64,000 bases of DNA from an uncultured Bdellovibrionales bacterium (GCA_964497185.1 CAZCBX010000002.1:2533-66532); one strand, 5' to 3'; positions 8,291 to 44,485 are shown, counted from the stretch's first letter. The notes: generated from the sequence alone by a model not told the origin. A program made the numbers and translations.

Positions 8291-8492
8291 GGTTGACTCC
8301 TTTGTCATCAATGATTAACAATGAGCACACCATATGTGCTGACCCCCCAAATGTCCAGTGTGAAGGTCCCTACCAAAGTAAGGCTTTGGCCCTATCAGCC
8401 AAACAAGATATCAATCAAAGCATGTAAGGGCTTGAAATCACTAAATTACTAAAATCATGCTTTGGGTATACCCCTGGTCATGAACGACCAAT

Positions 8493-25944: not shown

Positions 25945-26047
25945 AGCTTTCGATTTACCACATTCATTTCTGGAAGAAAAGACGGGATGATGCTCGCCCT
26001 ATTTTTTCCATGACGAATGCGGGATATTGGCGTACATAGGGCCCCAT

Positions 26048-29791: not shown

Positions 29792-30766
29792 ATGTCTTTA
29801 GGCTCAAAGTTACGTTTTCTTAAAAGCGGTAGAAAAGATTTTCAATGGGTAAACATCATTCCTCATTTGGGAATGCATCTGGCTGCCATTATTTTGGTGG
29901 CGCTTTCAGGGTTTAGCTGGATCGCACTGGCCGTATGCCTATTTTTATATGGCGTGCGCATGTTTGGTATCACCGCTGGATTTCACCGCTACTTTGCCCA
30001 CCGCAGTTATAAAACATCCCGCTGGTTTCAGTTTGTTTTGGCTTGGCTAGGGTGCAGCGCTGCACAGTTGGGTCCCATTTGGTGGGCCGGCCATCACCGC
30101 GACCATCACAAATATTCAGACACCGAAAAAGATGTGCATTCTCCCGTCGTGCGAAACTTTTGGTGGTCTCACATGGGCTGGCTTTTTTCAGACCGTTTTA
30201 ACCACACCCCTTCGGAAAATATGAAAGACTTTCACAAGTATCCAGAAATCATGTGGCTGGATAAATTTTCACTTTTGCCACCTGTGCTTTTGGCCGTGGC
30301 GACATTTTTTCTTGGACGATGGTTGGCTGTAGCCAAACCCGAGTGGGGCACCAGTGGCATGCAAATGCTGGCATGGGGCTTTTTTGCCAGTACAGTGTTG
30401 CTGTATCACGGCACTTTCACCGTTAATTCGGTGGCCCATCTATGGGGCAAAAAAGTTTATCCAAGCAAGGATGAAAGCCGCAACAATCCATTGATTGCGT
30501 TGATTACACTGGGTGAAGGATGGCACAACAATCATCACTTTTTCCCCAGCTCTGAAGCCCAAGGCCTGGAATGGTGGCAGTTTGATGTTTCTCATTATAC
30601 GCTTAAAGCGCTTTCATGGGTTGGTATCACATGGGATCTTAAAAAAGCCCCCCGCGATCATCATAAGTTTCGCATCGATGCTCAGGAAAAAAAAATCAAA
30701 CAAGAGCAGAAAAAGCGCAAGCGTGAACAAAAAAAACTAAAGAAAAAACAAAAACTGGCTGCATAG
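29792..30766 (+). CDS. Membrane fatty-acid desaturase (acyl-lipid/acyl-CoA delta-9 type) with a Lys-rich C-terminal tail.
   Basis: Three His boxes HRYFAHRSY, HHRDHHKY and HNNHHFF; 4 TM helices. Confidence 0.8.
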   Translation: MSLGSKLRFLKSGRKDFQWVNIIPHLGMHLAAIILVALSGFSWIALAVCLFLYGVRMFGITAGFHRYFAHRSYKTSRWFQFVLAWLGCSAAQLGPIWWAGHHRDHHKYSDTEKDVHSPVVRNFWWSHMGWLFSDRFNHTPSENMKDFHKYPEIMWLDKFSLLPPVLLAVATFFLGRWLAVAKPEWGTSGMQMLAWGFFASTVLLYHGTFTVNSVAHLWGKKVYPSKDESRNNPLIALITLGEGWHNNHHFFPSSEAQGLEWWQFDVSHYTLKALSWVGITWDLKKAPRDHHKFRIDAQEKKIKQEQKKRKREQKKLKKKQKLAA

Positions 30767-30804
30767 TAAAGTCTGGTTGTGGCTGTGTTGCGGCCTCCAT
30801 TTTT

Positions 30805-31125
30805 ATGAAAGACGATGCCTCCAATAAACCCGATTTGATCGGCGACGCATGGAAACAATCTGAATCTGCCCCCGATGTGTCCGGCTGGACAGTGTTGCTT
30901 CTGAAAAGTCACGACTACGACCACATGTATGACCATGGGTTGGACATCTTAAAAAATAAACGGTGGTCATTGATCCAAATACAACAAACACTTAAAGAGC
31001 AGGGCATTGCTACGATCATTGCGCCCATTCAAGGTCCGCTCAGTTTGGCTGAGGCCATCTATGTTAAGCCAGAAGATCTCAACAAAGCAAAATTGATGCT
31101 TCAAGCCATCCAAGACCAACTGTAA
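30805..31125 (+). CDS. Hypothetical small protein (DUF2007-like?).
   Basis: ORF followed by the hairpin and T-run terminator at 31161-31196. Confidence 0.3.
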   Translation: MKDDASNKPDLIGDAWKQSESAPDVSGWTVLLLKSHDYDHMYDHGLDILKNKRWSLIQIQQTLKEQGIATIIAPIQGPLSLAEAIYVKPEDLNKAKLMLQAIQDQL

Positions 31126-31160
31126 GTTTTTAAAAAAGCAACACGCCATGATTCAAACCC

Positions 31161-31196
31161 TGCGTCCCCAAAGGGACGCAAGCCTCCTCATTTTTT
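31161..31196 (+). terminator. Family-1-type hairpin tgcgtccccaaagggacgca followed by TTTTTT.
   Basis: Stem-loop plus T-run right after the stop of 30805..31125. Confidence 0.6.
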
Positions 31197-31228
31197 ATAC
31201 ACCATGCACGCCCAGCCTACACCTCCAG

Positions 31229-31268
31229 CCTCCGTCCCCAAAGGGACTGTCCCTTTAGGGACGGAGGG
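31229..31268. repeat. REP-like family-1 palindrome CCTCCGTCCCCAAAGGGACTGTCCCTTTAGGGACGGAGG.
   Basis: Near-perfect 39-bp palindrome; same family as 10050-10090. Confidence 0.8.
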
Positions 31269-31301
31269 TTGGTGTAAGTGCGGGGCTTGACTTTATCTTA
31301 A

Positions 31302-31318
31302 TTTAGACTTATTCTAAA
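31302..31318. promoter_or_regulatory. Candidate operator TTTAGA-cttat-TCTAAA next to the Fur-family gene start, overlapping a TTGACT -35-like element (31286).
   Basis: Perfect 6-5-6 inverted repeat, 3 nt before the ATG. The same half-sites recur upstream of ahpC. Confidence 0.45.
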
Positions 31319-31321
31319 AAT

Positions 31322-31729
31322 ATGAATAAATGTTTAACATCTGAACAAATTAAAACCCAGCTTTTGGAGGCAGGGGTGCAGCCAACAGCACAGCGTATGG
31401 CCATTTGTCAGTTTGTGCTTTGTGAAGCCGATCATCCAACGGCCGAAGAAATAAAACAGTGGGCCGATGATACATTTTCCATGATGAGCCGTGCCACCGT
31501 GTACAACACGCTCAACACATTGGTGGAAGCAGGCATGCTTAAAGAAGTACGCATTTCGGATTCGACCAAAGTACGGTATGACACCAATACAGGGCATCAC
31601 TATCATTTCTACGATGAAGCCACGGGTAAACTGGTTGATATTGACCCTGAACACATTGATATTAAAGCCAAGCTGCCATCTTCCATGAAAATGAAAGAAA
31701 TTGAAATTGTGATTAAAGGAACGATGTAA
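31322..31729 (+). CDS. Fur-family transcriptional regulator (likely PerR-type by context).
   Basis: Fur N-terminal DNA-binding region (TAQRMAICQFVL...ATVYNTLN) and HHYHF metal site. Lacks the CxxC structural-Zn motifs. Adjacent to ahpC-ahpD-dps. Confidence 0.7.
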   Translation: MNKCLTSEQIKTQLLEAGVQPTAQRMAICQFVLCEADHPTAEEIKQWADDTFSMMSRATVYNTLNTLVEAGMLKEVRISDSTKVRYDTNTGHHYHFYDEATGKLVDIDPEHIDIKAKLPSSMKMKEIEIVIKGTM

Positions 31730-31739
31730 AACCTTTTTT

Positions 31740-31768
31740 TTGACATTTATTTAGAATTAGTCTAAAAC
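31740..31768 (+). promoter_or_regulatory. ahpC promoter region: TTGACA -35 (31740) plus operator TTTAGA-attag-TCTAAA (31750-31766) between the -35 and -10 elements.
   Basis: Consensus -35 hexamer. Palindrome identical in half-sites to the one at 31302-31318. Confidence 0.5.
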
Positions 31769-31832
31769 AAGAATGATTTTAAAAACAAGCAACGTTCATC
31801 GTGAACTTTGCACAAAAAAAGGAGAAATACCC

Positions 31833-32396
31833 ATGAATGATCGAGTAATTGGCGTTGGCCAACCTTTCCCAGGATTTGACTTAACAGCCACGGTTTCAAC
31901 GGATGTAAGCGAATCCATTGAAAACGCGTTTAAAGACCTTTCTTATGAGAAAGATTACAAAGGCAAGTGGCTTGTGCTTTTCTTTTACCCCAAAGACTTT
32001 ACATTTGTATGTCCAACGGAAATTAAAGCATTTGGTGACTTGTACAGTGACTTCAAAGACCGCGACTGCGAAGTGCTTACCGCCAGCGTTGATTCTGAGT
32101 TTGTGCATTTGGCTTGGCGCAAAGACAACGAAAACCTTCATGACTTGCCATTTCCAATGTTAGCAGACATCAAACGCGAACTTTCAGGGGAGCTTGGCAT
32201 CATCGATCAAAATGCAGGCGTTTCTCAACGTGCCACTTTCATCATTGACCCTGATGGCATTGTCCGCCACATATCTGTCAATGACCTGAATGTTGGAAGA
32301 AATCCCAAAGAGATCATGCGTGTCTTGGATGCATTGCAAACAGATGAGCTTTGTCCTTGCAACTGGAAAAAAGGCGACGATACACTGAAAGTATAG
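31833..32396 (+). CDS. ahpC: Peroxiredoxin, typical 2-Cys (AhpC).
   Basis: FTFVCPTEI peroxidatic Cys motif and C-terminal resolving CPCNW. RBS aggag 8 nt upstream of the chosen ATG. Confidence 0.85.
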   Translation: MNDRVIGVGQPFPGFDLTATVSTDVSESIENAFKDLSYEKDYKGKWLVLFFYPKDFTFVCPTEIKAFGDLYSDFKDRDCEVLTASVDSEFVHLAWRKDNENLHDLPFPMLADIKRELSGELGIIDQNAGVSQRATFIIDPDGIVRHISVNDLNVGRNPKEIMRVLDALQTDELCPCNWKKGDDTLKV

Positions 32397-32462
32397 TGAT
32401 TGAACGATGCCTGCGTCTTTATGATTGTTTTATAAAGACGCAGACCATCTTCATTTGAAAGG

Positions 32463-33014
32463 ATGCTGAGCATGCAGGCGATTAAAGATCAGTTTGAAGA
32501 TTATGCAAAAGACGCAAAATTAAACTTGTCCTCCATTTTATCAGAAGAGGGCGCGCCGGGATTAACGCAAAAACAAATTGCGGGCACGGCTTTAACTTGT
32601 GCGCTTACGCTTCGAGATGAAGAACTGGCGCAAGCCATCACTCAAGAGTTTGAATCACTGCTCGACGAAAAAGACCACTACGGTATCCGAGCAGCGATCA
32701 GTTTGATGGCCATGAACAACGTATACTATCGTTACATGCATCTTTCCGAAGACGCTGAGTTATCCAAAATGCCTGCCAAACTTCGGATGAACGTCATGCG
32801 TGAACCGGGCATCGAAAAAAAAGATTTTGAAATATACAGCTTGGCCGCTTCCACGTTATCGGGATGTGGCATGTGCATTCAGGCCCACAACCGGGGTTTA
32901 AAGAAACTAAATGTCAGTGCAGAGGGCATTCAGTCTGTAGCCCGCATTGCTGCCATTATCAACAGTGCAAGCCAGTCATTGTGGCTTGCCAACACGTCAA
33001 ACAAAGGAGTTTAA
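32463..33014 (+). CDS. AhpD-like alkylhydroperoxidase / carboxymuconolactone decarboxylase family protein.
   Basis: CGMCIQAH (CxxC..H) motif. Sits between ahpC and dps. Confidence 0.65.
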   Translation: MLSMQAIKDQFEDYAKDAKLNLSSILSEEGAPGLTQKQIAGTALTCALTLRDEELAQAITQEFESLLDEKDHYGIRAAISLMAMNNVYYRYMHLSEDAELSKMPAKLRMNVMREPGIEKKDFEIYSLAASTLSGCGMCIQAHNRGLKKLNVSAEGIQSVARIAAIINSASQSLWLANTSNKGV

Positions 33015-33015
33015 A

Positions 33016-33486
33016 ATGAAAATAGACATTGGTATCAAAGAAGAACATCGCAAATCAGTAGCGGATCAAATGTCTCGCTTGCTGGCAGATACTTACATTC
33101 TATATTTAAAAACCCATAACTTTCATTGGAACGTAAAAGGTCCCATGTTTCAGACATTGCATTTGATGTTCGAAGAGCAATACACCGAACTGGCTTTGGC
33201 CGTGGATGAGATTGCTGAACGAATTCGAGCTTTGGGTGAAAGAGCGCCAGGCACTTACGCAGAGTACATGGAAATGGGCACCATCAAAGAGACCTCAGGT
33301 GTGCCCTCCGCGGAAGAAATGATTGAATTGTTGGTGCAAGGTCAAGAATCTGTCATTAAAACCGCACGCAAACTCTTTCCCCTAGCCGAAGAGGCGGGCG
33401 ATGAAGTATCCGCAGATTTGGCCACAGCCCGCATGACCATCCATGAAAAACGTGCATGGATGCTGCGCAGCTTGCTAGAATCGTAA
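33016..33486 (+). CDS. dps: Dps (DNA-binding ferritin-like protein).
   Basis: HNFHWNVKGPMFQTLHLMFEEQYTEL ferroxidase-centre motifs. RBS aggag. Start at the internal ATG of the track ORF. Confidence 0.8.
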   Translation: MKIDIGIKEEHRKSVADQMSRLLADTYILYLKTHNFHWNVKGPMFQTLHLMFEEQYTELALAVDEIAERIRALGERAPGTYAEYMEMGTIKETSGVPSAEEMIELLVQGQESVIKTARKLFPLAEEAGDEVSADLATARMTIHEKRAWMLRSLLES

Positions 33487-33564
33487 GCCCATTTGCGACT
33501 GGTCATCCCCCTGATTTTATGATTTATAGGTTTCCATCATGAACAAAATCAGGGGGATTTTTTA

Positions 33565-34224
33565 ATGGTTCGGTCAGCCGCCGCTTTATTGAGTGTTCTG
33601 ATGAGCTGGACGGCCTTTGCTTATTCAGGGCCTGAGCACATTTACCAAAGCTTTGAAGACGTCTTTACTTTTATGTCGTTGAGTGAGCTGACTACAAAAG
33701 ACCATGAGATCTTTCAAGCAGGATACGAAGCATGTTTTCAAGAAAAATATAGCGAAGCCAATTACCAATGCATCGTAGACATCTCAGAGCTTCAATGGTT
33801 AATCATGAAGTCAGGTCACCAAATTGAGTCTCTTGGTGCCAATGCAATCTTTATGGATAAAAATATGGAGCCTAGTGAAATTCATGCTCATTTTGCTGAT
33901 TTGGGTATCACGATGAGTAAGAAAGACGTTCAGTCGGTTAGGGCATACATTGAAAGACTGAGGCCATGTGGGCATCGCATAAGCATGAAAAAACTGACGA
34001 TGGAGTGTGTAGATCAAGCGCTGGGCACTTTTGCTAAACCAGCTATAAAACTTTATTATGCTTTTAAAAAGAAAGCATCACCCGATTTTGATTCATTGAA
34101 GGAATTTCGCGAGCAGTTGGTCGATTTTCCGGACGTCATGATCGGGGAGTACGCAGATTTTCTTGTTCCAGGCACTGTCATTGAAGTTCCAGGTCTAACT
34201 CCTGCTGAGTCGTTCCGACATTAG
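33565..34224 (+). CDS. Hypothetical secreted protein.
   Basis: Signal-like N-terminus MVRSAAALLSVLMSWTAFAYS; no family recognised. Confidence 0.3.
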   Translation: MVRSAAALLSVLMSWTAFAYSGPEHIYQSFEDVFTFMSLSELTTKDHEIFQAGYEACFQEKYSEANYQCIVDISELQWLIMKSGHQIESLGANAIFMDKNMEPSEIHAHFADLGITMSKKDVQSVRAYIERLRPCGHRISMKKLTMECVDQALGTFAKPAIKLYYAFKKKASPDFDSLKEFREQLVDFPDVMIGEYADFLVPGTVIEVPGLTPAESFRH

Positions 34225-34403
34225 GGCATGTTGATCGATTTTTTGGTTTTGCAGACGTAAAATTTTTCTGAGCCAAAATCACACTGGACAAGCTCAACCA
34301 CCAAGGTACAAAGTAAAGCGTATTGCTTGAGCAAAACACCATTTTCAAATAACTAAAAAAATTACTTAGCCTTGAACACATATTGGTGGGAGTATATTAT
34401 AAA

Positions 34404-35432
34404 ATGAATTCAAATACTTATGATGCTTTTTTGTTGGTTTCATTTGGGGGCCCTGAGGCGCCGGAAGAAGTGATGCCTTTTTTGGATAACGTCCTTCGTG
34501 GCAAACCAGTGTCAGAAGAGCGAAAAAAAGAAGTGGCCGAGCATTATTATCAGTTTGGCGGCGTTAGTCCCATCAATGCGCAAAATCGGGCGCTGATGGA
34601 CAAATTGCAAACGGCATTCCAAGAAAATCAAATTGATCTGCCCATCTACTGGGGCAACCGAAACTGGAAGCCCTACATTCTGGATGCGCTTACGCAAATG
34701 AAACAAGATGGAAAACGTCACGCGTTGGCTTATTTTACCTCAGCGTATAGTTCCTACTCAGGCTGTCGACAGTATCGAGAAAACATCCAAGCAGCCCAAG
34801 CCCAGATAGGAGAACAAGCACCCAACGTGTCCAAACTTCGTATGTTTTTCAATCACCCTCATTTTATTCAAGTCAATGCCAACCATATCGAAGATGCATA
34901 TGCAAAAATGAATAAAACCGATAAAAACAAAACCTTTTTGGTGTTTACCGCCCACAGCATCCCCATCGCGATGAGCGAAAACTGTGATTATGAAATGCAG
35001 CTGCATGAAACAGCCAGACTGGTGGCGCAAAAAGCCGGGTTTGACCATTACCGCCTGGTGTATCAGAGCCGAAGCGGACCACCCCAAATGCCCTGGCTTG
35101 AACCCGACGTATGTGACTTTATTTCTTCTTTGGATGAAAAAAAACATGATGCCGTGTTGGTGGCGCCCATCGGTTTTGTATCCGATCACATGGAAGTCCA
35201 ATTTGATTTGGATGTAGAGGCCAAAGAGGCCGCTCAAAAAAAGGGTTTGAATTTTTTTCGTGCGCGCAGTGCAGGCAATGATGATTTATTCGTGGAAATG
35301 ATTGTGGATTTGGTTTTGGAGCGGATGCACGATCGTGAAGATAAAAAATCGATTGGCCGGCTGGGGCCTTGGCATGATGTTTGTCCGCCGGATTGTTGTA
35401 CTTATACGCCGCGTAGGCCTGTGCAATCTTAG
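34404..35432 (+). CDS. hemH: Ferrochelatase.
   Basis: LLVSFGGPE N-terminal motif and conserved HSIP...MSE core; about 342 aa. Confidence 0.85.
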   Translation: MNSNTYDAFLLVSFGGPEAPEEVMPFLDNVLRGKPVSEERKKEVAEHYYQFGGVSPINAQNRALMDKLQTAFQENQIDLPIYWGNRNWKPYILDALTQMKQDGKRHALAYFTSAYSSYSGCRQYRENIQAAQAQIGEQAPNVSKLRMFFNHPHFIQVNANHIEDAYAKMNKTDKNKTFLVFTAHSIPIAMSENCDYEMQLHETARLVAQKAGFDHYRLVYQSRSGPPQMPWLEPDVCDFISSLDEKKHDAVLVAPIGFVSDHMEVQFDLDVEAKEAAQKKGLNFFRARSAGNDDLFVEMIVDLVLERMHDREDKKSIGRLGPWHDVCPPDCCTYTPRRPVQS

Positions 35433-35757: not shown

Positions 35758-36123
35758 TTAAGGTTGCAGTAAAGCCCGTATTTTTTCAACCCGCCGCTGG
35801 TTGGCGCCGAGGTCAGAATGTCCTACGCGTGAGGCCGATCGGACGTGGATTTGTTCTTGCGTTTCGTTCAGTACAAATTCGACATCATCTCGAAAGCGAA
35901 AAATCAAACTGACAAAAACCAGATGCAGGTAGGTGGCTTCTTGCTGTATTACCTCTACGCGAAAATGCTTTTCGCATCGCTGTTTTAGTTCCGTTAGCTG
36001 TTGATCCACAGGCACCCCTGGAATAAAAGGCAGCGGCTGAATAAAATGAGATGCATCATCCGGGTAAACGGAACAAACACAATTGGGCGTAGCAGGGCAG
36101 GGACGCAAAGAATCGGTCTTCAT
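35758..36123 (-). CDS. DUF1499-like small protein.
   Basis: PATPNCVCS motif typical of DUF1499; 121 aa. Confidence 0.45.
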   Translation of the reverse strand: MKTDSLRPCPATPNCVCSVYPDDASHFIQPLPFIPGVPVDQQLTELKQRCEKHFRVEVIQQEATYLHLVFVSLIFRFRDDVEFVLNETQEQIHVRSASRVGHSDLGANQRRVEKIRALLQP

Positions 36124-36135
36124 GGTTTTACGCTA

Positions 36136-36918
36136 TCACTTGCTCTTTGAACTGCAACTTTTTGGCCAAGGAAAAAAAACGGGCGTTTGTTTTTGGTAGT
36201 CTTTGTAAGCTTGTCCCCTGGTCTCTCGCATGTGTTTGGCCTTCAGAGGAATGCCAGAGAAATAGCGTAAGAAAATATACTCCAAGCCCACAGTCAGCCA
36301 GGCCCAATACCCGTGTTCAAAACCACTGGCGTAGGTGGCCATGCCGATCCAGGCCACCCATTCAAAGAAATAATTGGGATTCTGAGACCAGGCCCATAAA
36401 CCTTCTTTGCAAAATGCCTGAGGATCGTTATTTTGTTTTTTAAATTTTTCCACTTGATGATCGGCCAAGCTTTCCATGCTTAAGCCAAGCACATACAAAG
36501 CCCCGCCGATGATGCACAACACCTTCAACGCGACCGTTGCTTCAAAGATCGGTGCAAAAGGGGCCACAAACATGATGGCCAGCAAACCTTGGCCCATAAA
36601 AAATCCGAAAAATTTAAGCTTTGTATGGCGCTGCCAATGATTCACCAAACGCTCATAACGACGGTCTTCGTGCCCACTGGCGTACCTCTTCCATAACGTC
36701 CAGGCCAAACGAAATGACCAGAGGGTGGGCATGGCCAGCCAAGCCCACAACCAAATTGAATGAGGCGCATGGACAAAAGCAAGTATGGCAAATGCCATGG
36801 CAATAGACAGACACCAACCAAAATCGGCCAACATGTATCTTTTTTTGTAGGCGCTCCAAGCCCATAGTAAGCTCATCCAACCCATAATTACAGAAGAAAT
36901 GACAATCCAGGTGTGCAT
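36136..36918 (-). CDS. DUF1295 / steroid-5-alpha-reductase-like membrane protein.
   Basis: Multi-TM, 260 aa. C-terminal LRYFSGIPLKAKHMRETRGQAYKDYQKQTPVFFPWP resembles the DUF1295/ICMT-like C-terminus. The family commonly neighbours CFA-synthase-like genes. Confidence 0.45.
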   Translation of the reverse strand: MHTWIVISSVIMGWMSLLWAWSAYKKRYMLADFGWCLSIAMAFAILAFVHAPHSIWLWAWLAMPTLWSFRLAWTLWKRYASGHEDRRYERLVNHWQRHTKLKFFGFFMGQGLLAIMFVAPFAPIFEATVALKVLCIIGGALYVLGLSMESLADHQVEKFKKQNNDPQAFCKEGLWAWSQNPNYFFEWVAWIGMATYASGFEHGYWAWLTVGLEYIFLRYFSGIPLKAKHMRETRGQAYKDYQKQTPVFFPWPKSCSSKSK

Positions 36919-37021: not shown

Positions 37022-38068
37022 ATGCACATCATGTTGCAAAAAATAATTCAATGGGCTGAACAAGGCTGGCTGCCAGATCAGATCATTCGCATGGGCATGC
37101 GCCAACTGGTGCAGCAGCGCTACGCCCAACAAGAAAAACTCTATCAAAATCAGAACCGCGAACAAACGATGCTGGATGTGCTTTCGCAGGGCCCGATTGC
37201 TGAAAACACACAAGAAGCCAACGAGCAACACTATGAAGTGCCGGCCCAATTTTATGCTTGGGTGCTGGGTCCAGCCTTGAAATACAGCAGCGCCTATTTT
37301 TCACAACCCGATGACTCTTTGTACCTGGCCGAACAGGCGATGCTGCAAAAATATGGTGAATTTGCGCAGCTAGAGGATGGCATGGATATTTTAGAATTGG
37401 GCTGCGGGTGGGGCAGCTTGACGCTGTGGATGGCTCAGCAGTATCCCAATAGCACCATCGAAGCCATTTCCAATTCTCGGTCTCAGCATGACCACATCAT
37501 GCAACAATGCGTAAAGCGTGATTTGCACAATGTAAAAGTACGAACGGTCGACATCAACGAGTTTACGCCCCATCAGACATACGATCGGGTGGTTTCGGTG
37601 GAAATGTTTGAGCACCTTCGCAACTATCATCAACTCTTTGAGCAAATTTCAAGTTGGCTTAACAAAGATGGTAAATTGTTTGTTCACATTTTTTGTCATC
37701 GCCGCTGGGCTTACCTATTTGAAACCGAAGGGGCCGACAACTGGATGGGAAAGTATTTTTTTACAGGCGGTGTGATGCCCAACCAAACCACATTTGAAAA
37801 CATTCAAAGCGCACTGACGTTGGAAGAAAAAGAGTGGGTATCGGGACAGCATTATCAACAAACAGCCGCAGCTTGGCGCCAAAACTTAAAAAACCATGCC
37901 GATGACATTGAAGCGCTTTTTGGCACCAACTATGGTCCAAAGGAAGCCCGTCGCTGGTTGGGTCGTTGGAATATGTTTTTTATGGCGTGTGAAGAGTTGT
38001 TTGGCTATCGCAAAGGGCAAGAGTGGGGTGTTTCTTTGTACAGATTTTCAAAGGCATCAAAGACATGA
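37022..38068 (+). CDS. SAM-dependent methyltransferase of the cyclopropane-fatty-acyl-phospholipid synthase (CFAS/mycolic acid cyclopropane synthase) family.
   Basis: ILELGCGWG SAM motif and RVVSVEMFEH; 348 aa, shorter than Cfa. Confidence 0.7.
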   Translation: MHIMLQKIIQWAEQGWLPDQIIRMGMRQLVQQRYAQQEKLYQNQNREQTMLDVLSQGPIAENTQEANEQHYEVPAQFYAWVLGPALKYSSAYFSQPDDSLYLAEQAMLQKYGEFAQLEDGMDILELGCGWGSLTLWMAQQYPNSTIEAISNSRSQHDHIMQQCVKRDLHNVKVRTVDINEFTPHQTYDRVVSVEMFEHLRNYHQLFEQISSWLNKDGKLFVHIFCHRRWAYLFETEGADNWMGKYFFTGGVMPNQTTFENIQSALTLEEKEWVSGQHYQQTAAAWRQNLKNHADDIEALFGTNYGPKEARRWLGRWNMFFMACEELFGYRKGQEWGVSLYRFSKASKT

Positions 38069-39330
38069 GCGAGCCACAGCGCATCGCTGTTGTTGGTTCA
38101 GGTATATCGGGTTTGCTTTCCGCCTACCTATGGAGTCAAAAAGCAGAAGTCACGCTCTATGAAGCTAGAAAAAGAATAGGGGGACACACCCATACCCACC
38201 CCATATCCATGGGCGGTCGAACCCATCCGGTGGATTCAGGTTTTATCGTGCTCAATGACCGTACGTATCCCACCCTTCACCGTTTTTTCAAAGTTCTGAA
38301 TGTATCCGTACAAGATGCCGAAATGTCTTTTTCTTTCTACCGGCAAGACCGCAACGCTTATTATGCGGGCAACAATCTAAATGGCTTGTTTGCCCAGCGC
38401 AGCAATCTCTTTTCGCCTCGGTTTTACTGTTTTCTATGGCATGTTTACCGGTTTGGCCATCAGGCTTTGGCAGATCTTGAAAAAGGGTTAGCTTTGGATG
38501 TCACACTCGGTGATTATTTAACGCGAATCAATGCCCATCCTCGTTTGGTGCAAGAATACATTTTGCCCATGGTGGCATCCATCTGGTCAGCGCCCGATCA
38601 GGTGTTGATGGCACATCCTGCCCATGCCATTTTATCGTTTATGAAACATCATGGTTTGCTCGACCTCACGGATCGTCCACAATGGCAAACCGTCGTGGGT
38701 GGCAGCGACCAATACATCAAAGCTTGTTTGGCCAATCGTCCGATCACCATTGTTTCAGATCAGCCCATTGAGCGTATTGCGCGCGCAGCGCATGGCGCCA
38801 TTGTCACTGGGCAAGATGGGGTTCAAGAAAGGTTTGACCGTGTCATTGTGGCTGTTCATGCCGATCAAGTGCTACCACTGCTTGACCAACCCCAACCTTG
38901 GGAAGAGGCTTTTTTTTCGACTTGGCGTTATGAAAAAAATGAAGTGCTAATTCATACTGATTCACGCTGGATGCCGCCGCATCGAAGAGCATGGGCTTCA
39001 TGGAATTATTTTCAAAGCCAAACACACCGTAAAAATAAATTGGTCATGACTTATTATATGAATTTGCTGCAGGGGCTGGATGCCCCCAAAGATATTTTTG
39101 TCACGTTGAATGCGCAAGATTTGATCGACCCGGAAAAAGTTCTTGAAGGTGTTTCGTACAAGCATCCAATTTTTTCAAGCACCTCACTCAAGGCAAGAGA
39201 ACTTTTTTTAACACGTCATCCTAAGCACGACTGCGTTCAATATGTTGGCGCTTACTTCGGATATGGCTTTCATGAAGATGGCGCACGTTCCGCACTGCGC
39301 ATAGGGGAAGAGCATGGACTTACCCTCTAG
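38065..39330 (+). CDS. NAD/FAD-binding amine-oxidase-like oxidoreductase.
   Basis: IAVVGSGISGLLSAY Rossmann dinucleotide motif. ATGA start/stop overlap with the upstream methyltransferase. Confidence 0.7.
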   Translation: MSEPQRIAVVGSGISGLLSAYLWSQKAEVTLYEARKRIGGHTHTHPISMGGRTHPVDSGFIVLNDRTYPTLHRFFKVLNVSVQDAEMSFSFYRQDRNAYYAGNNLNGLFAQRSNLFSPRFYCFLWHVYRFGHQALADLEKGLALDVTLGDYLTRINAHPRLVQEYILPMVASIWSAPDQVLMAHPAHAILSFMKHHGLLDLTDRPQWQTVVGGSDQYIKACLANRPITIVSDQPIERIARAAHGAIVTGQDGVQERFDRVIVAVHADQVLPLLDQPQPWEEAFFSTWRYEKNEVLIHTDSRWMPPHRRAWASWNYFQSQTHRKNKLVMTYYMNLLQGLDAPKDIFVTLNAQDLIDPEKVLEGVSYKHPIFSSTSLKARELFLTRHPKHDCVQYVGAYFGYGFHEDGARSALRIGEEHGLTL

Positions 39331-41242
39331 CCAATACCTCAGTGCCGACATCGTTCATCACCGTTTTTCCCCAACCAAACGTACATTTCGCTACAGGGGT
39401 CATTATCTGTGGTGTCACATCCATGAACTTGCGACATTGCCTAAAAAAGACCAGTGGTTTGGGTACAATCAGTCAAAGCTTTTTTCAGTCTGGGATAAAG
39501 ACTATCTTGACCCCGAGGCCAAAGGGTCCATCCAAGAAAAAATTTTTTCCTGGTACGAGCAAGAAGCTGTTGTGATTCCCGAAGATGTCTATTTATTCAC
39601 GTGTCCCAAGGTATTGGGGCACGTTTTTAATCCCGTTCATTTTTATTTTGGTGTGCGACAAGGCCACTTAGAAAACGTGGTGGTGGAAATCAACAACACG
39701 TTTGGTGAACGTCATATTTATACGGTGCCCGTGGATCAACCCCTCCACCAAAAAAGCTTTCATGTCTCGCCATTTTTACCGGTTGAGGGAACATACCGGT
39801 ATGACTTTACACTCAGCCCTGAAAAAATAGGGGTGGGCATTCATGTTGAGCAAAAAAAGCAAAAAATTTTCTTTGCATCGGTTCAAGGCAATTTTTCCAA
39901 TCATAGTCTGGCCGAATACCCTTTTTGGAAGCGGTTTTTGCCACTTTTAAATTATCCCAGAATTCTCTGGCAAGCTGCGCTCATTTTTTATAAACACAAA
40001 CTTCCTGTGTATACCAAACCACGACCGCAAAACAGACATACCGTCAAAAAAGCCACGCCCAATGCGTTTGAAAAACTGTGCATGGCCATGGTCGACCGCT
40101 TTTTTAAAAAGGCGCAGAAAGGCCGGCTTGAAGTATGGATGCCCGATGATTCTTTGCGGCATTACGGAGACGAACAGGCCAACGTCACCGCACGCATGGA
40201 AATTCATGCATATTCATTTTTTACAGCGGTCTTTTGGGGTGGGGACATTGCTTTTGGAGAACAGTACGAACAAAAATCATGGGATAGCCCTGACTTAATC
40301 AGCTTGTTGTCATGGTTTGCCATGAATCAAGATGTCATGGACGATCAAAAACTTTTTACTTCTTGGTTTGTACGAAAAATGACGTCCCTTCGCCATGCGC
40401 GTCGAAACAATACCTTGAGGGGGAGTCGAAAAAATATTTCTGCACATTACGACCTAAGCAATGACTTTTTTGAAAAAATACTGGATCCCCACATGCAATA
40501 CTCGAGTGCGCTGTATGAAAAGCCCAACATGACGTTGGCCCAAGCCCAGCAGTGCAAAATTGATCGAATTGTACAGCAACTGGCCGTGGACAAAGGCATG
40601 CATGTTTTGGAAGTGGGATCGGGCTGGGGTGGTTTGGCCATGGAAATTGCCCGACAAACAGGCTGCAACGTGACCACCATTACTCTTTCCAAAGAGCAAA
40701 AGAAATATGTGGAGGCACGCATTGCGCAGCAAGGCATGCAAAAACAATTGAATGTTGTCCTTCAAGACTATCGAAACATTCAAGAGGTGTATGATCGTGT
40801 GGTGTCGGTAGAAATGATTGAGGCAGTGGGCCGAGAGTTTTTGCCTTCTTATTTTCAAAAAATTTATGCATGTGTGAAGCCCGGTGGTCTGTTTGTTTTA
40901 CAAGGCATTACCATGGCTGAAGAAAAATACGATGTATACGCTTCCAAAGCAGACTGGATTCAAAAATACATTTTTCCTGGCTCTCACATTCCCACTCAGT
41001 CTATGGTGATGAACTTAGCTCAAGGCGCTGGGTGGCAACGATTGGCGCAAGCTGAGTTGGGACCATCATATGCAAAAACGCTTCATCAGTGGCATCAAAC
41101 CATGATGGCTAAGAAACAAGCGTTAACCGACATGGGCTTTGGCGAAAAAATATTGAGACGCTGGGCCTATTACTTTTCTTACTGTGAAGCCGGCTTTCGA
41201 CAAGAACATTTGCACGATTACCAATGGACGTTTCAAAAATGA
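39314..41242 (+). CDS. Fusion protein: N-terminal DUF1365 domain (about 250 aa) joined to a C-terminal cyclopropane-fatty-acyl-phospholipid-synthase-like methyltransferase (about 390 aa).
   Basis: Single uninterrupted 642-aa ORF. The C-terminal half carries the Cfa motifs ISAHYDLSNDFF, VLEVGSGWGG and RVVSVEMIEAVG. The N-terminal half has no methyltransferase motifs and matches the size of a DUF1365 domain. Confidence 0.65.
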   Translation: MDLPSSQYLSADIVHHRFSPTKRTFRYRGHYLWCHIHELATLPKKDQWFGYNQSKLFSVWDKDYLDPEAKGSIQEKIFSWYEQEAVVIPEDVYLFTCPKVLGHVFNPVHFYFGVRQGHLENVVVEINNTFGERHIYTVPVDQPLHQKSFHVSPFLPVEGTYRYDFTLSPEKIGVGIHVEQKKQKIFFASVQGNFSNHSLAEYPFWKRFLPLLNYPRILWQAALIFYKHKLPVYTKPRPQNRHTVKKATPNAFEKLCMAMVDRFFKKAQKGRLEVWMPDDSLRHYGDEQANVTARMEIHAYSFFTAVFWGGDIAFGEQYEQKSWDSPDLISLLSWFAMNQDVMDDQKLFTSWFVRKMTSLRHARRNNTLRGSRKNISAHYDLSNDFFEKILDPHMQYSSALYEKPNMTLAQAQQCKIDRIVQQLAVDKGMHVLEVGSGWGGLAMEIARQTGCNVTTITLSKEQKKYVEARIAQQGMQKQLNVVLQDYRNIQEVYDRVVSVEMIEAVGREFLPSYFQKIYACVKPGGLFVLQGITMAEEKYDVYASKADWIQKYIFPGSHIPTQSMVMNLAQGAGWQRLAQAELGPSYAKTLHQWHQTMMAKKQALTDMGFGEKILRRWAYYFSYCEAGFRQEHLHDYQWTFQK

Positions 41243-41706
41243 AAAAACTGCGTTTTTCATATCAAAGTTTGCTGTATGCGCCGGTGGAAGAAGTCTACGC
41301 ATGGCATATGGACCCGATGGCTTTTCAGATGTTGACGCCACCTTGGGAGAAAGTGGTGGTTAAAGAGCCATTGCAAACCATGCAGCCGGGTGAGACCATG
41401 ACGTTGGTGATGTACCCGCCTCCAGGAATTTTACCTATAAAATGGGTTGCGAAAATCGCGGAGGTTCAACACCAATCGTTATTTGTGGACGAGCAAATCA
41501 AGGGGCCATTTGCCTATTGGCGCCATTGCCATCGTTTTCACGAAGTGGAAAAAAATCGTTGCCGTGTAGAAGACGACATCGAATTTGAGCTGCCGCTGTC
41601 GTTTTTGTCCCATCGTACTATGGGCAGTTGGGTCACAAAAAAACTGATGAAAACATTTGAATATCGCCACCGCGTGTATGCTCAGGTTTTTCGGGAGTAC
41701 ATGTGA
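41224..41706 (+). CDS. SRPBCC (polyketide cyclase/START-like) lipid-binding protein.
   Basis: 160 aa with 19-nt coupling overlap. Size and pattern of SRPBCC proteins found in such lipid operons. Confidence 0.45.
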   Translation: MDVSKMKKLRFSYQSLLYAPVEEVYAWHMDPMAFQMLTPPWEKVVVKEPLQTMQPGETMTLVMYPPPGILPIKWVAKIAEVQHQSLFVDEQIKGPFAYWRHCHRFHEVEKNRCRVEDDIEFELPLSFLSHRTMGSWVTKKLMKTFEYRHRVYAQVFREYM

Positions 41707-42935
41707 ATCCCAAAGTGATCATTGTTGGAGCGGGGTTGGCTGGACTTTGCTGTGCACGGCATTTGCATCGTCGGGGTGTGGACGTTGTGCTGCTAGAGCA
41801 AAAGCAGGAGGTGGGCGGTCGATTGCAAACCACACAGCTTGATGGTTTTGTATTGGACCATGGCTTTCAAGTTTACAACACCGCGTATCCTGAAGGCCAG
41901 CAAGAACTCAATTACCAAGCTCTGGATTTCGGCTATTTTGACCCTGGCGCGTATATATTTATGGAAGGCCAGCGATACAATGTAGGAGACCCACTGCGGC
42001 AACCATCTACGCTGATTTCAACACTTCAAGCCCCCATCGGCAGCGTCAAAGATAAAATGCTGATGGCCAAGCTGAGCCTGTGGAGCCGTCAACTGTCTCA
42101 TGCGCAGCTGATGGCCATGCCCGTACAGACGACCTTATCCTTTCTTCGCGGTTATGGGTTTAGTTCCAAGATCATTGCCAATTTTTTTCAACCATTTTTT
42201 GGTGGGGTGTTTTTAGAAAAGTCACTTCATACGTCTCATCATCTTTTTTTGTATGTTTTTTCCATGCTGGCCAAAGGCAAAGCGGCCCTGCCCAAAAACG
42301 GCATGCAAGCCATTGCTCAACAACTTAGCCAGCATCTGCCAAACGATCAGCTATTGCTGGGACATACGGTAGAAAGCATCCAAGACGGTCGCGTGACATG
42401 TCAAAATGGCAAAACGATCAAAGCGCAACACATTGTCTTGGCCGTGGAGCAACACACCGCTCAAAAGCTTTTGGGTCAACCCCAAACACAAGCGTGGGTT
42501 GGAACCTACAACGCGTACTTTGAAGTGGACGCACTGCCCATCGAACACAAAAAAATCTGTTTGATGACGGATCGCCATCCATGGATCCAAAACATATGTT
42601 TTCCGTCGATGATTCAGCCATCTTACGCCCCCAAGGGGAGAAATTTAATGAGTGTCAGCGTCAATATCACACCAGAAGAAGACCGGTCTGGGTTGGCGCA
42701 GCGAATTGAACATGCCGTCATAGATCTTTTCGATCACGAGTGTGGCGCGATTCAAGCACTCGCCCAGTTTGAAGTACCTTACGCATTGCCATACCAAGAA
42801 CCTCAAACCCTGCTGCCATGGCAGCGTCCGCAGAACATTGATCAAGGGCTTTGGGTTTGTGGTGACTGGCTGGATCAAGGTTCGATTCAGGGTGCCATGG
42901 TGTCTGGGCGAAGAGTCGCGGAGCAACTTTGCTAG
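41703..42935 (+). CDS. FAD-dependent oxidoreductase (amine oxidase / phytoene-desaturase-like).
   Basis: VIIVGAGLAGLCCARHL...LLEQKQEVGGRL dinucleotide-binding motif; 410 aa. Confidence 0.7.
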   Translation: MNPKVIIVGAGLAGLCCARHLHRRGVDVVLLEQKQEVGGRLQTTQLDGFVLDHGFQVYNTAYPEGQQELNYQALDFGYFDPGAYIFMEGQRYNVGDPLRQPSTLISTLQAPIGSVKDKMLMAKLSLWSRQLSHAQLMAMPVQTTLSFLRGYGFSSKIIANFFQPFFGGVFLEKSLHTSHHLFLYVFSMLAKGKAALPKNGMQAIAQQLSQHLPNDQLLLGHTVESIQDGRVTCQNGKTIKAQHIVLAVEQHTAQKLLGQPQTQAWVGTYNAYFEVDALPIEHKKICLMTDRHPWIQNICFPSMIQPSYAPKGRNLMSVSVNITPEEDRSGLAQRIEHAVIDLFDHECGAIQALAQFEVPYALPYQEPQTLLPWQRPQNIDQGLWVCGDWLDQGSIQGAMVSGRRVAEQLC

Positions 42936-43351
42936 ACCTGCATCATCTATGCTTATGGGCTGCGCTGCTAAGCACATGCTGGATGACTGGCTTAATTTGG
43001 TACGTGCAAGTGGTGCATTACCCCATGTTTGCGCAAATGGACCACGCAACGTTTAAAGCTGCCATGCGAATACACCAACAAAGAACTTCATGGGTGGTGG
43101 TGCCTTGGATGCTGCTGGAGCTGGGTACAAGCCTATGGCTTTGGCTTACAACCTGGACCTGGCCCCACCATGCATCGGTTTTGTTGCTCGCGCTGATATG
43201 GCTCTCTACCTTTCTTTGGCAAGTTCCTTGTCATCGTCAACTCAGTACAATGTGGAATGAAAAAACCCATCAACGGCTGGTGAAAACCAACTGGATGCGA
43301 ACATGCATGTGGACGTTGCGCAGTTTTTTGTTTGCATGGCTGTTGATGTAG
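42929..43351 (+). CDS. Small integral membrane protein (DUF1772-like?).
   Basis: 140 aa, 4 predicted TM helices, Trp-rich. Confidence 0.3.
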   Translation: MLDLHHLCLWAALLSTCWMTGLIWYVQVVHYPMFAQMDHATFKAAMRIHQQRTSWVVVPWMLLELGTSLWLWLTTWTWPHHASVLLLALIWLSTFLWQVPCHRQLSTMWNEKTHQRLVKTNWMRTCMWTLRSFLFAWLLM

Positions 43352-43976: not shown

Positions 43977-43996
43977 TTCCATGGTTTTCCATGGAA
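43977..43996. promoter_or_regulatory. Perfect palindrome TTCCATGG-tttt-CCATGGAA immediately upstream of the RHH antitoxin start; candidate autoregulatory operator.
   Basis: 8-4-8 perfect inverted repeat. Confidence 0.4.
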
Positions 43997-44016
43997 ATTT
44001 ATGGTATGCTAAAACC

Positions 44017-44223
44017 ATGAAAGAAGGAAACTTGGCAGTTGTACTGCCCATGGATTTAAAAAAAGCGGTTAGCAATCACTGCAAAGAACATGGGTTAAAG
44101 ATGAAAAAATTTGTTGAAGAAGCATTGATCGAAAAACTCGAAAACACAATGGATATTGCCTCTATTGCGGCACGTGAAAATGAAGAAACCATTCCTCTCA
44201 GTGAAGTACTCAAAAAACTATAA
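44017..44223 (+). CDS. Ribbon-helix-helix (CopG/ParD-like) antitoxin.
   Basis: MKEGNLAVVLPMDLKKAV beta-strand plus helix pattern. Overlaps the downstream toxin gene. Confidence 0.5.
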   Translation: MKEGNLAVVLPMDLKKAVSNHCKEHGLKMKKFVEEALIEKLENTMDIASIAARENEETIPLSEVLKKL

Positions 44224-44485
44224 AATCGAACTGAAAAAATCAGCCGCAAAAGAGCTGATCAAAATCCCCAAAACCTACCAACAACAAATTATTGATGGCT
44301 TAAAAGTACTGGAATCCAATCCAAACACACAAATCCTAGACATTAAAAAACTTCAGACCAAAGGAGACTTTTTCCGCCTCCGCATTGGATTATACCGAGT
44401 CATCTACGAAGTGCGTAAAAGCCAAGTTTTGATTTATGTGATCAAAATCGCTCACCGAAAAGAAGTCTACAAAAAACTCAAGTGA
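44180..44485 (+). CDS. RelE/ParE-family toxin.
   Basis: About 100 aa, Lys-rich, with a C-terminal RIGLYRVIYEV..VLIYVIKIAHRKEVY typical of the ParE/RelE fold. Paired with the upstream RHH gene. Confidence 0.55.
   Translation: MKKPFLSVKYSKNYKIELKKSAAKELIKIPKTYQQQIIDGLKVLESNPNTQILDIKKLQTKGDFFRLRIGLYRVIYEVRKSQVLIYVIKIAHRKEVYKKLK

What the first reader, a model, noticed from the sequence alone, without database searches (positions are those of the whole stretch)
39314..41242. DUF1365 fused in frame to a CFA-synthase-like methyltransferase inside a furan-fatty-acid-like lipid-modification operon
Genes 37022-43351 form a tightly coupled operon, with ATGA overlaps and 4-19-nt overlaps. They encode a CFAS-like methylase, an amine-oxidase-like FAD enzyme, a DUF1365-CFAS fusion, an SRPBCC protein, a second FAD oxidoreductase and a small membrane protein. 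DUF1295 and DUF1499 genes lie divergently upstream. As far as I recall, bacterial furan fatty acid synthesis in Rhodobacter/Rhodopseudomonas uses exactly these three enzyme classes, encoded as separate genes: a CFAS-like methylase UfaM, an FAD-dependent desaturase UfaD and a DUF1365-type O2-dependent UfaO. That recollection needs checking. Here the putative oxygenase domain and a second methylase are one 642-aa polypeptide, and two methylases are present, which could fit a dimethyl-furan product. I do not recognise this fused architecture from other organisms. The operon sits next to an oxidative-stress island (fur, ahpC, ahpD, dps, desaturase, SOD), consistent with a membrane-lipid antioxidant role. 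No ECF sigma/ChrR pair is present in the window.
Basis: partly seen in the sequence, partly recalled or inferred. Interest (0 to 1): 0.72.

Follow-up and report, generated by a model that had tools for sequence, protein, structure and literature searches.

The report
Fused furan-fatty-acid enzyme gene, common elsewhere
The 642-residue protein really is a DUF1365 (UfaO-type) domain joined to a methyltransferase related to cyclopropane-fatty-acid synthase, inside an operon that looks like a furan-fatty-acid pathway, but this fusion and gene cluster are already common in public genomes, so this is a sound annotation and not a new architecture.

Summary
ORF 39314-41242 encodes one 642-aa protein with DUF1365 (residues 10-238) followed by a full-length CFA-synthase-like protein (about 250-642). 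Three separate metagenome assemblies give the same sequence, so a frameshift artefact is very unlikely.

The novelty claim fails. The best 120 database homologues are all fused. The fusion is present in 47 of 80 species-representative genome loci across more than 10 phyla, including cultured Desulfuromonas versatilis, Geoalkalibacter, Desulfacinum and Salisediminibacterium. It also accounts for 59 of the 150 nearest DUF1365 cluster representatives. Five of those loci share the window's gene order (methylase, UfaD-like, fusion).

The fused methylase has an invariant S-x-E-M-x-E-A motif where cyclopropane synthases have S-x-G-x-F-E-H. This argues against ordinary cyclopropanation. The upstream 348-aa methylase resembles coclaurine N-methyltransferase, the subfamily that I believe also contains FufM.

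The most likely product is a methylated, possibly dimethylated, furan fatty acid made on phospholipids. No lipid data exist. I could not compare the proteins directly with UfaM, RSP1089 or FufM. The SOD gene is 29 kb away, not adjacent. Verdict: new member of a known kind, modest interest.

The parts
39314..41242 (+). Fused gene, 642 aa: DUF1365 (UfaO-type) joined to a CFA-synthase-like methyltransferase
   Evidence: Single ORF. Pfam DUF1365 and CMAS. Identical in 3 assemblies. AlphaFold model pLDDT 94, pTM 0.87.
39341..40027 (+). DUF1365 domain (residues 10-238), a beta-barrel followed by a long helix (204-227)
40028..40423 (+). Junction plus Cfa-like N-terminal domain (residues about 239-370)
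40424..41224 (+). CMAS catalytic domain (residues 371-637) with the motif S498-V-E500-M-I-E503-A504
   Evidence: Pfam PF02353 E 8.4e-85. Motif comparison with solved cyclopropane synthases and MmaA4.
37022..38068 (+). MT1: 348-aa SAM methyltransferase of the coclaurine-N-methyltransferase-like branch of the CMAS family; FufM-like candidate
   Evidence: Pfam CMAS 4e-45. Best solved relative is CNMT 6gkv, E 7e-65 over the full length, against CFA synthases at 1e-27. Homologues 51-62% identical are widespread and lie in DUF1365 clusters.
38065..39330 (+). UfaD-like FAD-dependent oxidoreductase, 421 aa from ATG 38065 (the longest ORF starts at GTG 38023)
   Evidence: Pfam Amino_oxidase and NAD_binding_8. 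Best PDB hit is the amine oxidase LkcE, 2.6e-23. ATGA overlap with MT1. A homologue directly precedes DUF1365 in all but 3 of 80 loci.
41224..41706 (+). SRPBCC (Polyketide_cyc) small lipid-binding-type protein, 160 aa
   Evidence: Pfam PF03364 2.5e-5. Homologues lie next to the cluster in L031 and L039.
41703..42935 (+). Second FAD amine-oxidase-family oxidoreductase (AO2), 410 aa
   Evidence: Pfam Amino_oxidase 5.2e-46 over the full length. Only distant PDB relatives, renalase and polyamine oxidases. Homologues lie next to the cluster in L037, L039 and L074.
42983..43351 (+). Small hydrophobic protein, 122 aa from ATG 42983 (ORF from TTG 42929)
   Evidence: Called in the JGI annotation. No Pfam family above threshold; DUF4149 at 0.058. 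Homologues near the cluster in L011, L022 and L031.
36136..36918 (-). DUF1295 membrane protein (steroid-reductase-like superfamily), divergent from the operon
   Evidence: Pfam PF06966 1.3e-44. Recurrent member of the cluster in other genomes.
35758..36123 (-). DUF1499 protein
   Evidence: Pfam PF07386 4.8e-34. Found in clusters L036, L075 and L080, and fused to DUF1365 in L085.
29792..30766 (+). Membrane fatty-acid desaturase, cluster-associated in other genomes and detached here
   Evidence: Pfam FA_desaturase. 46% identical to the in-cluster desaturase of Methylophaga frappieri. Orthologues lie inside or beside the cluster in at least 10 loci.

Best explanation
Genes 37022-43351 form an operon that modifies unsaturated acyl chains of membrane phospholipids along the route described for methylated furan fatty acids. 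All steps below are inferred. (1) The Cfa-like C-terminal half of the fusion uses SAM to add a methyl group to a cis-monoenoic chain. It releases a methyl-branched trans-olefin and not a cyclopropane (UfaM-type step). (2) The UfaD-like flavoprotein desaturates this to a conjugated diene. (3) The N-terminal DUF1365 barrel of the fusion (UfaO-type) inserts an oxygen atom from O2 and closes the furan ring. (4) The CNMT-like methylase MT1 may add a second methyl group to the ring (FufM-type step), giving a dimethyl furan fatty acid. The fusion arose by end-to-end joining of the adjacent ufaO-like and CFAS-like genes. It places the first and last enzymes of the pathway on one membrane-associated polypeptide. 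The SRPBCC protein, the second flavin oxidoreductase, the small membrane protein and the divergent DUF1295 and DUF1499 genes are recurrent accessory genes whose roles are unknown. What is shown here: the domain identities, the reality of the fusion, its wide distribution, and the conserved gene neighbourhood. What is inferred: every chemical step and the product.
For: The pathway and enzyme classes are taken from PMC7380195. The order UfaD-like, DUF1365, CFAS-like matches RPA2571-2570-2569, where the in-cluster CFAS-like gene is UfaM. In Halomonas sp. YLGW01 the in-cluster gene expressed in E. coli gave 11-methyloctadec-12-enoate (PMC12089945). The UfaD-DUF1365 pair is conserved in all but 3 of 80 loci. 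Many fused loci carry no other methylase within the 8-kb flanks, so there the fused one would have to perform the first step. The motif S-[IV]-E-M-x-E-A occurs in 50 of 50 fused and 24 of 28 separately encoded cluster CFAS-like proteins. All seven solved cyclopropane synthases examined have Gly at the first Glu position and E-H at the second. MmaA4, which makes a methyl branch and no ring, has Glu there. All NCBIfam CFA-synthase equivalog scores are far below their cut-offs, for example 233 against 400 and 258 against 600. The DUF1365 domain keeps all family-wide conserved residues. MT1 is CNMT-like, and FufM is reported as 37.9% identical to Arabidopsis LIME1 (PMC10940516). MT1 homologues co-occur with the cluster in 23 of 80 loci, five of them in the window's order. 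The pTM of 0.87 for the whole fusion suggests a defined arrangement of the domains.
Against: No lipid or expression data exist for this organism or for any fused protein. I could not obtain the sequences of UfaM (RSP2144), RSP1089, RPA2569, UfaO or FufM, so orthology rests on family, synteny and a motif. In R. sphaeroides the in-cluster CFAS-like gene RSP1089 is dispensable for furan fatty acids and cannot replace UfaM, so position alone does not identify UfaM. The link from MT1 to FufM is indirect; the step from LIME1 to the CNMT family rests on my own knowledge and was not found in the searched papers. The closest relative (L009) keeps MT1, UfaD and CFAS but lacks DUF1365, so that trio may have a product of its own. 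The fused cluster is common in strict anaerobes, although UfaO needs O2.
Confidence: 0.6

Rival explanations
1. The cluster makes a different modified lipid and no furan fatty acid. In this reading the fused Cfa-like domain is an RSP1089-type paralogue with another substrate or product. The end product would be a methyl-branched, conjugated or otherwise oxygenated acyl chain, possibly processed further by the second oxidase, the SRPBCC protein and DUF1295.
For: RSP1089 sits in exactly this position and is dispensable for furan fatty acid synthesis. L009 keeps MT1, UfaD and CFAS without DUF1365. The accessory genes AO2, SRPBCC, DUF1295, DUF1499 and the desaturase recur without any assigned role. 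The cluster is present in strict anaerobes.
Against: In two of the three experimentally tested organisms the in-cluster CFAS-like gene is UfaM. DUF1365 has one demonstrated activity, furan formation. The domain here keeps all conserved residues.
Confidence: 0.25
2. MT1 is unrelated to furan methylation. It would methylate another acceptor (an amine, a lipid head group or a small molecule), as its closest solved relatives are N-methyltransferases, and the operon would yield at most a monomethyl furan fatty acid.
For: The best solved relatives are plant N-methyltransferases: CNMT, pavine NMT and TNMT. No direct comparison with FufM was possible. FufM in R. palustris is not encoded in the ufa cluster (RPA0924 against RPA2569-2571).
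Against: MT1 overlaps the UfaD-like gene translationally. Its homologues are embedded in DUF1365 clusters in 23 of 80 loci from many phyla. FufM is reported as similar to LIME1.
Confidence: 0.35
3. The operon is an ordinary cyclopropane fatty acid synthase operon, and the DUF1365 domain plays only an auxiliary or structural role.
Against: Scores are below every NCBIfam Cfa equivalog cut-off. The invariant Glu500 and Ala504 replace the Gly and His that are conserved in all solved cyclopropane synthases examined. The gene is tightly linked to UfaD-like and DUF1365.
Confidence: 0.04
4. The fusion is an assembly or sequencing artefact: a lost stop codon or a frameshift at the A/T runs near 40040-40110.
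For: Homopolymer runs (AAAAAA, TTTTTTAAAAA) lie in the junction region. The three assemblies may sample one clonal population.
Against: Three assemblies are identical. The junction aligns without gaps to 120 fused homologues, with conserved residues on both sides in one frame. The same fusion is present in 47 of 80 unrelated genomes, complete genomes included.
Confidence: 0.01

Closest known systems
Furan fatty acid pathway of Cereibacter (Rhodobacter) sphaeroides and Rhodopseudomonas palustris: UfaM, UfaD (RSP1091/RPA2571), UfaO (RSP1090/RPA2570, DUF1365), FufM (RPA0924) (Lemke et al. 2020, PMC7380195)
   Same: The three enzyme classes are the same and the core gene order is the same (UfaD-like, DUF1365, CFAS-like). 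A second methylase of a different subfamily is present, as needed for a dimethyl furan.
   Different: DUF1365 and the CFAS-like protein are one polypeptide here. MT1 lies inside the operon, whereas fufM is unlinked in R. palustris. DUF2878 and Chalcone_3-type genes are replaced by SRPBCC, a second flavin oxidase and a small membrane protein. No sigmaE/ChrR pair or sigmaE-type promoter was found at the operon. No direct sequence comparison was possible.
Uncharacterised fused DUF1365-CMAS proteins in public genomes, for example Desulfuromonas versatilis DESUT3_20150 (P0036), Geoalkalibacter ferrihydriticus (P0007), Desulfacinum infernum (L080) and Salisediminibacterium halotolerans (L067)
   Same: The end-to-end architecture, the junction and the S-x-E-M-x-E-A motif are the same. 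A UfaD-like gene precedes the fusion, and DUF1295 and MT1-type genes are often nearby.
   Different: Identity is only 35-46%. The window protein with P0002 and P0003 forms a divergent branch. The accessory genes differ.
Halomonas sp. YLGW01 consecutive ufaM, ufaD and ufaO genes (PMC12089945)
   Same: The methylase sits in the cluster next to ufaD and ufaO. When expressed in E. coli it produced 11-methyloctadec-12-enoate, the UfaM product.
   Different: The genes are separate.
Arabidopsis AtUFAMD1 (AT3G23510, a UfaD-UfaM fusion), AtUFAO1 (AT1G30130, DUF1365) and LIME1/AtFUFM1 (PMC10940516)
   Same: The enzyme families are the same, and two pathway enzymes are again fused into one protein.
   Different: Plants fuse the oxidase with the methylase and keep DUF1365 separate. 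Here DUF1365 is fused with the methylase and the oxidase is separate.
E. coli cyclopropane fatty acid synthase Cfa (PDB 6bqc)
   Different: Identity is 29%. The score is below the equivalog cut-off. Glu replaces Gly and Ala replaces His in the catalytic S-V-G-M-F-E-H motif.

Membership tests
DUF1365 / UfaO family (PF07103) | Match to the family profile above the curated threshold | tested here: met
   186.9 bits against a cut-off of 25; residues 10-238 cover profile positions 3-235 of 235.
DUF1365 / UfaO family (PF07103) | Residues conserved across stand-alone and fused members are retained | tested here: met
   27 positions are at least 85% conserved in both 84 short and 55 long representatives, and all are present in the window protein.
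DUF1365 / UfaO family (PF07103) | Encoded directly downstream of a UfaD-type FAD oxidoreductase | tested here: met
   The genes overlap by 17 nt in the window. The same pairing holds in all but 3 of 80 loci.
DUF1365 / UfaO family (PF07103) | O2-dependent conversion of the methylated conjugated diene to a furan ring | not testable with these tools
   Needs lipid biochemistry. The activity is known only for RSP1090 and RPA2570.
UfaM (cis-vaccenate 11-methyltransferase) | CMAS-family SAM methyltransferase with a full Cfa-like two-domain fold | tested here: met
UfaM (cis-vaccenate 11-methyltransferase) | Closer to RSP2144 and RPA2569 than to RSP1089 or to Cfa | not tested
   The reference sequences could not be retrieved with the available tools. 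Only position in the cluster and the motif bear on this.
UfaM (cis-vaccenate 11-methyltransferase) | Produces 11-methyl-12-trans-18:1 from cis-vaccenate | not testable with these tools
   Needs an enzyme assay or expression followed by GC-MS.
Canonical cyclopropane fatty acid synthase (Cfa) | Score above the NCBIfam equivalog cut-off | tested here: not met
   PRK11705 233 against 400; CPFASynBruc 258 against 600; CfaB 209 against 650.
Canonical cyclopropane fatty acid synthase (Cfa) | Catalytic motif S-x-G-x-F-E-H | tested here: not met
   The window has S-V-E-M-I-E-A. Solved CFAS and mycolic cyclopropane synthases have Gly and His, while MmaA4 has Glu.
FufM (furan fatty acid methylase, RPA0924): candidate MT1 | CMAS-family methylase of the CNMT/LIME-like branch | tested here: met
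   CNMT 6gkv E 7e-65 over the full length, against CFAS at 1e-27. The FufM-LIME1 similarity comes from PMC10940516. That LIME1 is CNMT-like rests on my own knowledge.
FufM (furan fatty acid methylase, RPA0924): candidate MT1 | Direct sequence similarity to Q6NBA4 and methylation of 9M5-FuFA | not tested
   The sequence was not retrievable and the activity needs an assay.
UfaD (fatty acyl desaturase, RSP1091) | FAD amine-oxidase-family protein encoded directly upstream of ufaO | tested here: met
   Pfam Amino_oxidase and NAD_binding_8. Synteny.
SigmaE-ChrR singlet-oxygen regulon | ECF sigma/ChrR pair nearby, or a TGATC-N16-19-CGTA promoter upstream of the operon | tested here: not met
   No sigma or anti-sigma domains in the ORFs scanned. 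The promoter pattern has 2 matches in the window and none upstream of 37022; 0.87 are expected by chance.

The most novel reading that the evidence does not exclude
The widespread UfaO-methylase fusion marks an obligate two-enzyme complex that hands the acyl chain from the first step to the last step of furan formation. In this lineage the additional in-operon genes (CNMT-like methylase, second flavin oxidase, SRPBCC protein, small membrane protein) would extend the pathway to a furan or oxygenated lipid not yet described. The presence of the fused cluster in many strict anaerobes would then point to an O2-consuming, membrane-protecting lipid chemistry outside phototrophs.
Probability: 0.15. 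Interest if true: 0.55.

Novelty: new member of a known kind. Interest (0 to 1): 0.28.

Why it matters
Only a few furan fatty acid pathway enzymes have been tested by experiment, and how UfaO works is not understood. The fusion acts as a Rosetta-stone link. It shows that the in-cluster Cfa-like methylase and UfaO work together in a very wide range of bacteria, strict anaerobes included. It also offers a natural single-polypeptide construct for biochemistry. The E500/A504 motif gives a simple sequence test that separates these methylases from true cyclopropane synthases, which current annotation confuses. For this window, the practical result is a corrected annotation of the operon in an uncultured, probably Bdellovibrionota, genome.

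Tried and rejected
- **Frameshift or assembly artefact:** rejected.
- **Unique architecture:** rejected.
- **Single origin of the fusion:** not resolved. A neighbour-joining tree of 86 DUF1365 domains interleaves fused and separate forms, with about 11 parsimony changes. The domain is short, the tree is weak, and some 'separate' calls sit at contig ends.
- **Apparent four-domain fusion in L051 (Acidobacteriota):** rejected. It reflects a high-GC contig with pieces of the same genes in several frames.
- **SigmaE-type promoter:** none at the operon. The simple sigma-70 scan found nothing in the 103-bp divergent intergenic region.
- **Rfam:** no RNA families in the window.
- **AlphaFold database fold search:** library unavailable.
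- **Literature support for the G236E switch in E. coli Cfa and for LIME1 being CNMT-like:** not found in the searchable library. Both remain my own recollection.
- **Reference proteins (UfaM, RSP1089, RPA2569, UfaO, FufM):** none of the tools could supply the sequences, so no direct orthology test was made.
- **Window species in the genome collection:** not found.
Full report
**1. The observation**

Against the separately encoded genes of Methylophaga frappieri, residues 13-236 match DUF1365 positions 11-244 of 268. Residues 279-642 match the CFAS-like protein at positions 43-407 of 417. In that genome the two genes overlap by 29 nt.

**2. The fusion is not an artefact**

The same 642-aa protein and the same DNA occur in three separately assembled JGI metagenomes. 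The window comes from a 436,929-bp contig of sample 3300040801. There are no differences in the gene and one mismatch in 12 kb. The junction contains A and T runs. Even so, residues 236-285 align without gaps to 120 fused homologues, with conserved K235, P236, P238, T243, G270, P277 and G285 in one frame.

**3. The operon**

| Coordinates | Product |
|---|---|
| 37022-38068 | MT1, 348 aa, CMAS family |
| 38065-39330 | Amine-oxidase-family flavoprotein, UfaD-like |
| 39314-41242 | DUF1365-CFAS fusion |
| 41224-41706 | SRPBCC protein |
| 41703-42935 | Second amine-oxidase-family flavoprotein (AO2) |
| 42983-43351 | Small hydrophobic protein |

The UfaD-like start overlaps the MT1 stop as ATGA. 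The remaining junctions overlap by 17 nt, 19 nt and 4 nt. DUF1295 (36136-36918) and DUF1499 (35758-36123) lie divergently upstream.

**4. The literature recollection is correct**

Lemke et al. 2020 (PMC7380195) show three steps. UfaM methylates cis-vaccenate to 11Me-12t-18:1. UfaD (RSP1091) desaturates this to 11Me-10t,12t-18:2. UfaO (RSP1090, DUF1365) uses O2 to form the furan 9M5-FuFA. FufM (RPA0924) then makes the dimethyl 9D5-FuFA.

The order UfaD, UfaO, CFAS-like occurs in both model organisms. In R. palustris the in-cluster gene RPA2569 is UfaM. In R. sphaeroides the in-cluster RSP1089 is dispensable and UfaM is encoded elsewhere. In Halomonas sp. YLGW01 the three genes are consecutive, and the methylase expressed in E. 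coli gives 11-methyloctadec-12-enoate (PMC12089945). Plants fuse UfaD with UfaM (AT3G23510) and keep DUF1365 separate (PMC10940516).

**5. The fused architecture is common**

- The best 120 homologues of the 642-aa protein are all 642-693 aa and all carry both Pfam domains. They include proteins of Geoalkalibacter ferrihydriticus, Desulfuromonas versatilis and Verrucomicrobiae, several named 'DUF1365 family protein' by NCBI.
- I scanned one genome per species with a DUF1365 alignment and scored stop-to-stop frames with my own profiles. DUF1365 and CFAS lie in one frame in 47 of the best 80 loci.
- Those loci span Desulfuromonadales, Syntrophales, Desulfobacterales, Kiritimatiellia, Lentisphaerae, Verrucomicrobiota, Omnitrophota, Sumerlaeota, Acidobacteriota, Poribacteria, Leptospirales, Bdellovibrionota and Oligoflexia. 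Cultured examples are Desulfacinum infernum and Salisediminibacterium halotolerans.
- A full HMMER search of 1.84 billion cluster representatives with the DUF1365 domain alone found 3346 relatives. Of the best 150, 59 are at least 590 aa (52 of them carrying the S-x-E-x-x-E-A motif of section 7) and 84 are under 330 aa.
- The window protein is a divergent member: 46% identity to its nearest relative P0002 and 35-39% to the rest.

**6. The neighbourhood is also conserved**

A UfaD-like gene directly precedes DUF1365 in all but 3 of 80 loci. MT1-type genes occur in 23 of them, and five loci share the window's order MT1, UfaD, fusion (L014, L040, L067, L074, L078). DUF1295, DUF2878 and Chalcone_3 recur often.

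The window's less common genes also recur:
- AO2 in L037, L039 and L074.
- SRPBCC in L031 and L039.
- The small protein in L011, L022 and L031.
- DUF1499 in L036, L075 and L080, and fused to DUF1365 in L085.

The desaturase at 29792-30766 is 46% identical to the in-cluster desaturase of Methylophaga. Orthologues sit inside or beside the cluster in at least 10 loci.

**7. Which methylase does what**

MT1's best solved relatives are plant coclaurine, pavine and tetrahydroprotoberberine N-methyltransferases (E 7e-65 over the full length). CFA synthases score only 1e-27. FufM is reported as 37.9% identical to Arabidopsis LIME1. I recall LIME1 as a CNMT-family protein, so MT1 is a FufM-like candidate, but the link is indirect.

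The fused domain is Cfa-like yet falls far below every Cfa equivalog cut-off. In the catalytic motif, E. coli Cfa, two other bacterial CFA synthases, CmaA1, CmaA2, PcaA and MmaA2 read S-x-G-x-F-E-H. MmaA4, which makes a methyl branch without a ring, reads S-I-E-A-F-E-H.

The fused family has invariant S498, E500, M501, E503 and A504. The pattern S-[IV]-E-M-x-E-A is found in 50 of 50 fused and 24 of 28 separately encoded cluster proteins. From memory, a G236E mutant of E. coli Cfa makes non-cyclopropane products; I could not confirm this in the library. The motif argues against ordinary cyclopropanation and fits UfaM-type chemistry.

**8. Structure**

**9. Context**

The block from 29792 to 35432 holds a fatty-acid desaturase, Fur, AhpC, a CMD/AhpD-type protein, a Dps-type ferritin, an unassigned 219-aa protein and ferrochelatase. 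The Fe/Mn SOD is at 7697-8311, about 29 kb away. No ECF sigma/ChrR pair was found. The sigmaE-type promoter pattern is absent upstream of the operon.

The closest named relatives of the LeuRS at 26027-28864 are Bdellovibrionales (65%) and Bdellovibrionota (59%) MAGs. The organism is therefore tentatively an uncultured Bdellovibrionota.

The closest relative of the operon (L009) shares MT1 at 62%, UfaD at 55.5% and CFAS at 54.6% identity. It has no DUF1365, and its CFAS starts at the equivalent of residue 276.

**10. Verdict**

The furan-fatty-acid reading is the best available explanation (confidence about 0.6) but rests entirely on inference. The claimed architectural novelty is not supported. 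This is a new, divergent member of a known and widespread, though biochemically uncharacterised, fused form of a known lipid-modification cluster.

Noticed in passing
window 29792-30766: This membrane fatty-acid desaturase is 46% identical to the desaturase inside the Methylophaga DUF1365 cluster. Orthologues lie in or next to the cluster in at least 10 loci from several phyla. Here the fur-ahpC-ahpD-dps-hemH block separates it from the operon.
   Followed up: partly
L009 8263-11698 (JGI 3300027325): This is the closest relative of the operon (MT1 62%, UfaD 55.5%, CFAS 54.6% identity). It has MT1, UfaD and CFAS but no DUF1365, and its CFAS begins at the equivalent of window residue 276. The likely explanation is loss of the DUF1365 part in a related lineage.
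   Followed up: partly
L085 7923-9137 (Desulfobacterales MAG): DUF1365 and DUF1499 lie in one reading frame. This is a second kind of fusion, and it links the divergently encoded DUF1499 gene of the window (35758-36123) to the pathway.
   Followed up: no
L005, L006, L013-L036 and other loci: The fused cluster is common in strictly anaerobic lineages (Desulfuromonadales, Syntrophales, Desulfobacterales, Kiritimatiellia), although the only known DUF1365 activity needs O2 (PMC7380195).
   Followed up: no
L005 3006-3944 and L006 2066-2941: A MerR-family regulator with a B12-binding domain (CarH-like, a possible light sensor) lies next to the cluster in Desulfuromonas versatilis and Geoalkalibacter. 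This hints at light or photo-oxidative control in place of sigmaE-ChrR.
   Followed up: no
window 33565-34224: This 219-aa ORF between dps and ferrochelatase matches no Pfam family. The real Fe/Mn SOD is at 7697-8311 on the - strand.
   Followed up: yes
window 140-6367: A 2075-aa ORF encodes 14 DUF11 repeats and a C-terminal IgGFc_binding domain, probably a giant surface protein. It lies in a stretch with 53% GC against about 46% in the rest of the window.
   Followed up: partly
window 43981-44485 and 21432-22115: A DUF6290/ParE toxin-antitoxin pair sits just downstream of the operon, and a RES-domain protein lies further upstream.
   Followed up: no
L051 5886-9973 (Acidobacteriota MAG): DUF1295, UfaD, DUF1365 and CFAS pieces appear in one long stop-free frame, but fragments of the same genes occur in other frames. 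This looks like a frameshifted high-GC long-read assembly and not a four-domain protein.
   Followed up: partly
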